A stretch of 61,177 nucleotides of DNA, the filler included, from Hausera hauseri (lineage: Eukaryota): the NCBI GenBank assembly GCA_046269625.1. It is 9 parts of 9 records of this genome, joined end to end, with 100 filler letters (N's around TTAATTAATTAA, not from the genome) between each part and the next. Parts side by side here need not be neighbours in the genome. Positions count along the whole stretch, not along the records: positions 55,084 to 61,177 come from JBJURY010141649.1; 8 more parts are not named here. One strand, 5' to 3'. How positions within the stretch are numbered: position 1 is the first letter of the stretch; the number at the start of each line of letters is the position of its first letter. The notes below the pieces were generated by a model. The model was not told the origin of the DNA. It searched no databases and saw only the letters and a list, made by a program, of their open reading frames with translations. This document shows positions 58,141 to 59,564 of the stretch, in pieces. The translations under genes were made by a program, and so were the position numbers.

Positions 58141-59564
58141 ACTTCAGATTATGGATTAATTGGTTGGTTCTGCCTATTAGTCCTCATAGGAACACCTGGC
58201 CTATTCGCTCAGACAACAAAACCATTTAACTCGTGGATGCAAACATTTCCTTCAAATGAAACATTAGAAAATAGTCTGATGAAAAACATTTATCATGAGA
58301 TAACCTATACAAAGAAAGGTCAAAAATGTATCAGATTTATAACATTTGAAAGATTCCCCAACCAATATATGATAGGAATTCAAACAATTCATGAACATGA
58401 CTACGAACAAAACTTTAAACAACGAAAATATGATTGCGGTCTTAGTTATTGGAGAAACACAACGGATTGTATAGTAGACGATTCCGGTAATTATCTCATA
58501 TACTATACCCTGATAAAAAGGCATAAGAGTAGTTATCGATGGCAATATACCAAGTGTCGATGTATCATACACATCCCTAATAGACGAATAATGAACTTAA
58601 CCAAACTCGATGAGATAATTTTGACTCAAATCATTGTTAAGCCGCTAGAATTTAAAAGCGGACGAACCTGTATTGAAGTTAAGACAATGATAGAATTAGA
58701 AGAGAATATAATAATAAGTATAACACTTACTGACGTTCAAAAGAATCAAAAGATATCAAAAAATATCAACTGACGTCTGAACATCTCCGAGTTTGCTGTA
58801 ACGTCTTAAGAGAAAGAACTTACGACTTGAAATTTAGGCTAGTACGCAACGAGGTAGAAAGCATCAAGATATTAACTCACCAAGGACCCAGAGTATACGT
58901 TACATTCAAAAATTTCATCAAATACGAAGATGATCAACAGTTAAGTGTCACGACATCTCTTGCGAAATTTTCAATAACTAACAAAACAACGATAAATAAT
59001 AAAAAAAATGACTGTTCTTATTCAACCGCACGCTCTACATTACCGTTATAAACGCTCGATATTAGAAAAGGCCACAATTTCTTCCACATCCACTTCTTTA
59101 GTTATAGCTATTCTAACCGACTTAAATTTTTATAAAATTAAATTTACTTGTAAACTAGGACAAAATTTTATAGCAAAAGGCATAATTACGCCAGATGATA
59201 CGATAATGCCGTGTGCTGATCTGAATCCAAATACAAAGTATACAGTTATATTACAACTGTATGGAGATGATAATATGATAATTGCTACTAAATTATTGAC
59301 AGCATCAACAAAATCTAAAGTACCATTAATAGTTGAACATAAAAAGATAAATAGAAAACCAAAACAAAATCCTCAGTTACCAAAAGCAAGTTACACCAAT
59401 TCCCGAATGGAACTAATTATAATAAGTGTTGTATGACCTTACTCGTAGTACTAATAGTTATAATAAGGGTAGTAGTTCATGTACAAAAGCGTCGCAGACC
59501 AAATTGTGTGAGCATAAACATGCGACGCATACCAAATATCTTGGATACTGATTATCTAAATTGA
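58141..59564 (+). pseudogene. Env-position type I membrane protein fused in frame to pol (signal peptide, ectodomain, furin site, FN3 domain, TM helix, tail), with three frameshifts
   Basis: Hydrophobic YGLIGWFCLLVLIGTPGLFA (58150-58209); RYKR (59044-59055); FN3 pattern STSTSLVI..YKIKF..LNPNTKYTVIL..ST (59068-59310); ELIIISVV/MTLLVVLIVIIRVVV followed by KRRR. Frameshifts at about 58740, 59005 and 59432. Confidence 0.65.

What the first reader, a model, noticed from the sequence alone, without database searches (positions are those of the whole stretch)
58141..59564. Gypsy pol continues into an env-position membrane protein made of fibronectin type III domain(s)
Seen: the integrase ORF does not stop after GPY/F but runs into a signal-peptide-like segment and more than 180 aa of Cys-containing ectodomain. 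Three single-base shifts (two at A-runs) join it to a weaker FN3-like segment (..CCNVLRERTYDLKF..), a furin site RYKR|S, a clear FN3 domain (STSTSLVI, YKIKF, LNPNTKYTVIL), a TM helix, KRRR and a short tail. Established: SP-furin-TM is the layout of retroviral and errantiviral Env, but known Gypsy Envs are baculovirus-F-like or other viral fusogens, and no hydrophobic fusion peptide follows the furin site here. Inference: an independently captured cell-surface or adhesion protein serving as a new envelope/attachment protein or receptor decoy.
Basis: partly seen in the sequence, partly recalled or inferred. Interest (0 to 1): 0.85.

Follow-up and report, generated by a model that had tools for sequence, protein, structure and literature searches.

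The report
Gypsy retrotransposon with fibronectin-type surface protein
A multi-copy Gypsy retrotransposon family carries, where a viral envelope gene would sit, a gene for a predicted membrane protein with a fibronectin-type domain instead of a known fusion protein, followed by a likely inactive nuclease gene; it probably serves as a captured cell-attachment protein, a kind of envelope replacement I could not find described for Gypsy elements.

Summary
Largely confirmed and extended. A Ty3/Gypsy pol (RT closest to Ty3) stays open for 237 codons past the integrase end, into a signal-peptide-like segment and a Cys-bearing beta-rich domain. Across three frame breaks it continues to RYKR|S, one FN3 domain (AlphaFold pLDDT 80; Foldseek top hit fibronectin), a basic stalk, a membrane helix, KRRR and a short tail. 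Related copies, mostly 80-95% alike, in three runs from three studies cover the whole stretch and differ in length at all three breaks. So the breaks are lesions of this decayed copy, and the cargo most likely belongs to a family. No fusogen homology and no fusion peptide were found. LTRs and gag are off the contig piece, so element boundaries are unproven. Best reading: a captured, non-fusogenic surface or adhesion protein at the env position. The closest precedent is nectin-3 capture by a crocodilian retrovirus.

The parts
55086..56514 (+). Broken 5' part of pol: linker fragment, then RT and RNase H. In-frame stops at 55275 and 55497, a frame change near 55650-55690, a stop at 56515. The contig piece starts at 55084, so gag, protease and the 5' LTR are not present.
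   Evidence: Pfam RVT_1 1.2e-32, RT_RNaseH_2 3.5e-24; best PDB match Ty3 RT, 4e-62; N44-linker junction at 54984-55083
56518..58065 (+). RNase H end, H2C2 zinc finger, integrase core and GPY/F-type C-terminus (GPY at 57970)
   Evidence: Pfam Integrase_H2C2 3.6e-19, rve 1.2e-12; sequence
58153..58209 (+). Signal-peptide-like hydrophobic segment, in frame with integrase. No Met in frame between the integrase C-terminus and this segment.
   Evidence: hydropathy; translation; cleavage site judged by eye only
58210..58755 (+). N-terminal ectodomain, predicted beta-rich, with 6 Cys and 3 sequons. Fold unidentified; weak lipocalin lead.
   Evidence: AF2 pLDDT 40; Atlas 0.80-0.83, several lipocalin clusters; not backed by a bacterial lipocalin HMM, Foldseek or VIA
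58755..58763 (+). Frame break 1 (A-rich run)
   Evidence: length differences in contigs of X1 and X2 (table 4)
58764..59000 (+).
   Evidence: frame 58734-59051; FN3 test negative; bridged by X1 record 3 and X2 record 11
59001..59008 (+). Frame break 2 (A-run)
   Evidence: length difference in 4 X1 contigs (depth 274 of 280) and 4 X2 contigs (24 of 46) (table 4)
59044..59058 (+). Furin-type site RYKR|S directly before the FN3 domain; cleavage is inferred
   Evidence: motif scan
59059..59310 (+). Fibronectin type III domain
   Evidence: AF2 pLDDT 80.2; Foldseek PDB; Atlas 0.94; sole phmmer hit in 1.84 billion proteins is a multi-FN3 protein, P0002
59311..59406 (+). Lys/Pro-rich stalk
   Evidence: translation; no gap in X1 record 4 and X2 record 13
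59407..59483 (+). Predicted transmembrane helix, interrupted by frame break 3 at ~59435
   Evidence: hydrophobic halves in two frames; length differences in two X1 contigs, and two records end at 59435
59487..59564 (+). KRRR stop-transfer cluster and ~22-residue cytoplasmic tail, then stop
   Evidence: translation
59676..61019 (+). Second cargo ORF, 447 aa and uninterrupted: N-terminal hydrophobic segment, ~200-aa unknown domain, ISG20/ISG20L2-like exonuclease region lacking acidic residues in the ExoI strand, basic C-terminal cluster
   Evidence: PDB 7yw5 ISG20L2 E 0.0024 single sequence and 1.6e-4 with profile A1; P0001 59% identical over the alignment, 61% local

Best explanation
This is a decayed copy of a multi-copy Ty3/Gypsy family that carries at the env position a predicted type I membrane protein with a membrane-proximal FN3 domain, likely captured from a host receptor or adhesion gene and likely used for non-fusogenic attachment at the cell or particle surface. 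Shown: Gypsy pol; in-frame continuation into a hydrophobic segment; the FN3 fold (by prediction plus fold match); related copies over the whole stretch in three studies; copy-specific breaks; a second conserved cargo ORF. Inferred mechanism: the hydrophobic segment would act as an internal signal sequence of a Pol-cargo polyprotein, or as the signal peptide of a spliced subgenomic message. The ectodomain would enter the secretory pathway and be cut by furin at RYKR|S. That would leave an anchored FN3-stalk-TM-tail piece and an N-terminal binding piece that would tether the producing cell or budding capsids to a neighbouring cell, with entry left to host uptake or cell contacts. The ISG20L2-like ORF would be a catalytically dead RNA-binding or decoy accessory protein.
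For: RT best match Ty3 and RT-RH-IN order. 237 open codons past integrase, 0 of 2000 shuffles. FN3 from AF2 plus Foldseek and the Atlas; the sole phmmer hit is a 25-FN3 protein; depth in 30 of 30 bins for X1 and X2 and 29 of 30 for X3 (3 organism labels, 3 studies). Most laid contigs are under 95% alike (X1: 5577 of 7243), which points to many diverged copies. X1 joints link integrase to ectodomain (58029-58300), middle segment to FN3 (58846-59123), FN3 to tail (59165-59482) and tail end to the next ORF (59568-59679). The plus strand stays A-rich through the cargo (A 0.40 against 0.38-0.39 in pol; A=T about 0.34 in the neighbouring piece). The second ORF is intact at 59% identity in an independent database protein. 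No Pfam fusogen family hit any piece, and none of the 50 listed BFVD rows is described as a fusion glycoprotein. Precedent for an adhesion molecule replacing env: CrocERV31 nectin-3 (PMC4299795, passages).
Against: No LTR, gag or full-length copy is in hand; no laid record spans the stretch, and those four joints have short sides (20-35 letters) at 80% likeness. No database homologue of the ectodomain was found, so there is no alignment-based test and no host donor gene. Selection on the FN3 cargo is not shown: among 20 visible differences in 58141-59564, 8 are synonymous (p 0.23) and 10 are third-position (p 0.09); only 40 of 1189 rows were visible, and I dropped 5 near breaks. About half of the ectodomain has no assigned fold, so a fusogenic part cannot be excluded. 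The phmmer E-value of P0002 (1.2e-7) is summed over 13 repeats. X1 may be the same species as the window. The function is untested.
Confidence: 0.62

Rival explanations
1. The FN3 protein is a family-level cargo but acts on the host cell, not on transmission: a receptor decoy or shed ligand trap that dampens signalling or immunity, working with the dead exonuclease as accessory genes.
For: Same family evidence. It has a short tail without a signalling domain and a furin site that could shed the N-terminal part. A second, non-structural cargo sits beside it. Host-gene capture with unclear purpose is known (KIT-ligand, PMC4299795; rotifer ORF3 enzymes, PMC5408684).
Against: Its position directly after integrase and the SP-furin-TM layout mirror env. 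No similarity to a particular cytokine receptor beyond the generic FN3 fold was found.
Confidence: 0.2
2. The cassette is not a heritable part of the Gypsy element: a separate repeated cassette or host gene fragment became joined to this pol copy, and the open frame is incidental.
For: No LTR closes the unit inside the window and no laid record spans it. Depth is lower over the cargo than over integrase, which the tool says cannot rank parts but which leaves room for members without cargo.
Against: Seamless in-frame junction; no introns; shared strand bias; a diverged X1 contig joins 58029 to 58300 (depth 60) and further joints link the later parts.
Confidence: 0.1
3. It is a true fusogenic Env of an unrecognised class, with the fusion function in the unassigned N-terminal half and FN3 as a membrane-proximal scaffold.
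For: Env position, signal peptide, furin site, TM and sequons. The fold of 58210-59000 is unassigned.
Against: The residues after the furin site form the first FN3 strands in the model and are only mildly hydrophobic (19-mer 1.29). No other strongly hydrophobic ectodomain stretch; no Pfam fusogen hit. The whole product is about 470 codons, against about 600 aa for the rotifer F-type Env (PMC5408684).
Confidence: 0.08

Closest known systems
Errantiviruses (env-carrying Ty3/Gypsy) with F-type or HSV gB-type Env; 1512 elements in PMC13524379 (abstract, sections 5 part 1, 7 and 14, and term passages read; supplements not read)
   Same: Ty3/Gypsy pol followed by a signal peptide-ectodomain-furin site-TM gene; multi-copy
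   Different: The membrane-proximal domain is FN3; no fusion peptide after the furin site; no F or gB homology. That survey used F/gB baits and has 0 occurrences of 'fibronectin', so it would not be expected to recover this type.
Crocodilian ERV CrocERV31 with captured nectin-3 replacing env (PMC4299795, passages read)
   Same: A host-type adhesion protein with beta-sandwich domains at the env position
   Different: That is a retrovirus with a recent, recognisable capture (~76% identity, Ig domains). Here the carrier is a Gypsy element, the domain is FN3, no donor is recognisable, the ORF is in frame with integrase, and it has a furin site.
Bdelloid rotifer Juno/Vesta LTR retrotransposons with DEDDy exonuclease or small TM ORF3 (PMC5408684, passages read)
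   Same: Non-env cargo downstream of pol, including a DnaQ-like exonuclease and TM proteins
   Different: Here both cargos occur in tandem. The nuclease is ISG20L2-like, lacks the ExoI acids and has a hydrophobic N-terminus; the rotifer DEDDy ORFs lack TM segments. 'Fibronectin' occurs 0 times in that paper.
Drosophila MDG1-group sORF2 (PMC11952523, abstract only) and Oikopleura Tor Env (PMC4402516, passages read)
   Same: Non-canonical membrane proteins used or proposed for cell-to-cell transfer of LTR retrotransposons
   Different: sORF2 is a short FAST-like fusogen, and Tor Env has a putative fusion motif. No FN3 was reported in the text I saw of either.
Planarian Burro elements (PMC6431247, passages read)
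   Same: Env-like and host-derived domains translated in frame within a Gypsy polyprotein
   Different: Burro env is F-like and lies between gag and pol; 'fibronectin' and 'FN3' occur 0 times there.

Membership tests
Ty3/Gypsy (Metaviridae) LTR retrotransposon | RT of Ty3/Gypsy type | tested here: met
   best PDB match Ty3 RT 4e-62, next caulimovirus-type 1e-42; Pfam RVT_1; no tree built
Ty3/Gypsy (Metaviridae) LTR retrotransposon | Domain order RT-RNase H-integrase with GPY/F-type end | tested here: met
Ty3/Gypsy (Metaviridae) LTR retrotransposon | gag, protease, paired LTRs, PBS/PPT | not testable with these tools
   contig piece starts inside pol; no genome held; no long direct repeat or purine tract on the piece
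Errantivirus F-type Env | Furin site in the ectodomain | tested here: met
   RYKR|S at 59044; motif only
Errantivirus F-type Env | Hydrophobic fusion peptide directly after the furin site | tested here: not met
   the following residues are FN3 strands in a pLDDT-80 model; hydropathy 1.29
Errantivirus F-type or gB-type Env | Homology or fold of the F or gB ectodomain | tested here: inconclusive
   no Pfam hit on any piece; membrane-proximal domain is FN3; N-terminal model too poor to test
Fibronectin type III domain (59059-59310) | Seven-strand FN3 beta-sandwich | tested here: met
   AF2 seven strands; Foldseek top hits fibronectin FN3 and monobodies, TM-score 0.54-0.71 in listed rows
Fibronectin type III domain (59059-59310) | Pfam fn3 (PF00041) score above the curated cut-off | tested here: not met
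   no fn3 hit at E<=10; the domain is divergent and lacks the usual strand-B Trp (motif recalled)
Fibronectin type III domain (middle segment 58630-58895) | Similarity to FN3 repeats above shuffled background | tested here: inconclusive
   335 of 1000 shuffles score as high against a narrow profile of 21 P0002 repeats; not folded
Lipocalin (N-terminal domain) | Eight-strand barrel plus helix; lipocalin profile match | tested here: inconclusive
   Atlas 0.80-0.83, lead only; HMM of 80 bacterial Blc proteins gave -1.2 bits, 288 of 1000 shuffles as high, hhalign probability 0.1%; model pLDDT 40
DEDDh exonuclease, ISG20/REXO4 type (59676-61019) | Sequence similarity to the nuclease core | tested here: met
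   ISG20L2 7yw5, E 1.6e-4 over 67 positions; ISG20 1wlj second; no Pfam hit
DEDDh exonuclease, ISG20/REXO4 type (59676-61019) | Catalytic ExoI D-x-E motif | tested here: not met
   the strand 13-19 residues upstream of the aligned Cys has no acidic residue in the window ORF or in P0001; motif position recalled and outside the HMMER-aligned stretch

The most novel reading that the evidence does not exclude
A third class of env-position gene in Metaviridae: a non-fusogenic, furin-processed FN3 adhesion protein, fused in frame to Pol and paired with a dead ISG20-like nuclease, kept across several host species to move capsids between cells by attachment instead of viral membrane fusion.
Probability: 0.3. 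Interest if true: 0.88.

Novelty: new variant of a known kind. Interest (0 to 1): 0.66.

Why it matters
The largest survey of env-bearing Gypsy elements that I read sorts their envelopes into two virus-derived fusogen types (PMC13524379). An element family that keeps a host-like FN3 surface protein in that slot would show a different route to intercellular spread or host manipulation, and one that fusogen-baited searches would miss. Recent work shows that LTR elements can pass between cells without a classical Env (PMC11952523, abstract), so a candidate adhesion-type cargo is timely and testable. The tandem inactive ISG20-like nuclease adds a candidate counter-defence gene.

Full report
Setting. 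The window is a chain of short contigs joined by N44-TTAATTAATTAA-N44 linkers, and the finding lies on the last piece, 55084-61177. No whole genome is held. The piece begins inside pol, so gag, protease and the 5' LTR cannot be seen; no long direct repeat or purine tract was found on it. The host is not identified. An animal is my inference from the neighbouring GYF-domain gene and the repeat content.

The carrier. 55651-56514 encodes RT and RNase H (Pfam RVT_1 1.2e-32), with Ty3 RT as best solved relative (4e-62). 56518 onward encodes the RNase H end, the H2C2 finger, the integrase core and a GPY motif at 57970. This copy is defective in pol too: stops at 55275, 55497 and 56515 and a frame change near 55650-55690.

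The extension is real. The integrase frame stays open for 237 codons after 58060, and none of 2000 shuffles matches that. It passes a hydrophobic stretch at 58153-58209 and a domain with six Cys and three sequons. Three further frame pieces carry a middle segment, then RYKR|S, FN3, stalk and the first half of a hydrophobic helix, then the second half, KRRR and a tail. The plus strand is as A-rich in the extension (0.40) as in pol (0.38-0.39), unlike the neighbouring contig piece.

FN3. Residues from 59053-59325 folded without an alignment to mean pLDDT 80.2 (three of five models at 74 or more) with seven strands. Foldseek's best PDB match is fibronectin FN3-6 (E 7.3e-4; 2 matches at E<=0.001), and nearly all listed rows are FN3 domains or FN3-derived monobodies. 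In the viral library no match reached E 0.001, and none of the 50 listed rows is described as a fusion glycoprotein, though some rows have no name. The Atlas ranks fn3 clusters first (0.94, 166 shared features, just under its 170 guide). phmmer over 1.84 billion representatives returned one protein, a 25-repeat FN3 protein, with a repeat-summed E of 1.2e-7. The only PDB sequence hit at E<=10 was fibronectin, E 1.4. Pfam fn3 does not hit, so the domain is divergent. The residues after the furin site are the first FN3 strands, not a fusion peptide.

What is not identified. The N-terminal domain gave a pLDDT-40 model and no usable fold match. The Atlas offered lipocalin clusters at 0.80-0.83, a lead only, which a profile of 80 bacterial lipocalins did not back (288 of 1000 shuffles as high). 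No homologue of it was found.

Family, not accident. Three public runs from three studies and three organism labels hold the stretch (word shares 0.52, 0.22, 0.06). Laid at 80% likeness on 57000-61177, they cover 30, 30 and 29 of 30 bins; 5577 of 7243 X1 contigs are under 95% alike, which points to many diverged copies. Contigs differ in length from the window at ~58755-58763 (X1, X2), ~59001 (four contigs each in X1 and X2) and ~59435-59438 (two X1 contigs). Two gap-free records (59149-59435 in X1; 59002-59435 in X2) stop at that third place. The breaks are therefore lesions of this copy, and the third lies within the membrane helix. X1 joints connect integrase to ectodomain, middle segment to FN3, FN3 to tail, and tail end to the next ORF, with sides of 20-35 letters, which is modest support. 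No record spans the stretch. Only 12 of 27 indel rows, 15 of 35 joints and 40 of 1189 substitution rows were shown, and X1 may be the window's own species. Of 20 visible substitutions in the finding, 8 are synonymous, 6 of them among the 8 in FN3 and stalk; overall this is not significant.

A second cargo. An uninterrupted 447-aa ORF follows at 59676-61019. Its C-terminal half matches ISG20L2 (E 0.0024 alone, 1.6e-4 as a two-sequence profile) and ISG20. One database protein, P0001, is 59% identical and equally long, with its own hydrophobic N-terminus and basic C-terminal cluster. Both lack acidic residues in the strand where DEDD nucleases carry the ExoI motif (motif position recalled), so it is likely inactive. 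Conservation of an open frame at 59% identity implies selection on this ORF in the family (inference).

How it likely works. The layout predicts a type I membrane protein made either as the tail of a Pol polyprotein, through an internal signal sequence, or from a spliced message; there is no in-frame Met before the hydrophobic segment, and an AG lies just upstream. Furin would separate an N-terminal binding part from an anchored FN3-stalk-TM-tail part. With no fusion peptide, the simplest role at the env position is attachment: holding producer cells or particles against target cells. A decoy role on the host cell is the main rival; a separate nested cassette and a cryptic fusogen are less likely. 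All functional steps are inferred.

Comparison with what is known. PMC13524379 (abstract, three sections, passages) classes metazoan Gypsy env genes as F-type or gB-type and was baited with those. PMC4299795 (passages) describes nectin-3 replacing env in a crocodilian retrovirus, the nearest conceptual precedent. PMC5408684 (passages) describes DEDDy exonuclease and small TM ORF3 genes in rotifer LTR elements. PMC6431247 (passages) describes in-frame env and host domains in Burro. PMC11952523 (abstract) and PMC4402516 (passages) cover other non-canonical membrane ORFs. PMC6338049 (first quarter), PMC12440569 and PMC8166898 (passages) added nothing on FN3 cargo. Ten searches listed no report of an FN3-bearing Gypsy ORF; Repbase Reports, subscription journals and supplements were not seen.

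Verdict. The element is a Ty3/Gypsy by the features that could be tested, and it is not a member of the known Env classes by the fusion-peptide test. It is a new variant of a known kind (cargo capture downstream of pol), with a real chance of being a new functional class of envelope replacement. Interest 0.66.

Noticed in passing
window 59676-61019: Second cargo ORF with an ISG20L2-like, probably inactive exonuclease. It has both an N-terminal hydrophobic segment and a C-terminal basic, NLS-like cluster, also seen in P0001; these targeting signals conflict and are unexplained.
   Followed up: partly
window 59565-59682: The spacer between the membrane-protein stop and the second ORF varies among related copies (several indel rows at 59670-59682 and joints 59568-59679); the frame is open from 59565 in this copy.
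   Followed up: no
window linkers at 10399, 15588, 22683, 27328, 32952, 38030, 49757, 54984: N44-TTAATTAATTAA-N44 joins: the window is a concatenation of short contigs, so neighbours across linkers are not true genomic context.
   Followed up: yes
window 12513-14383: Fragments that read like a protein-primed B-family DNA polymerase (Polinton-like), judged by eye; no Pfam hit at E<=0.01 for the two pieces scanned.
   Followed up: partly
window 27766-28248: dUTPase-like ORF (Pfam 1.7e-14) on the contig piece that also holds a decayed gag/RT element (30186-32849; RVT_1 5.8e-24).
   Followed up: partly
window 8831-10069: ORFs that read like a rolling-circle Rep (HxH motif) and helicase fragment of a small DNA virus, judged by eye; no Pfam hit at E<=0.01.
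   Followed up: partly
window 35861-37333: GYF-domain gene piece (Pfam 7.8e-14) followed by a long Ser/Gln-rich frame; probably a host GIGYF-like gene.
   Followed up: partly
window 1646-4864: 1073-codon low-complexity open frame (Lys/Asp/Gly/Arg-rich) with no Pfam family.
   Followed up: no
window 38200-52350: About 11.5 kb of TTCG/TTCT-type simple repeats followed by gapped TC/TG repeats.
   Followed up: no
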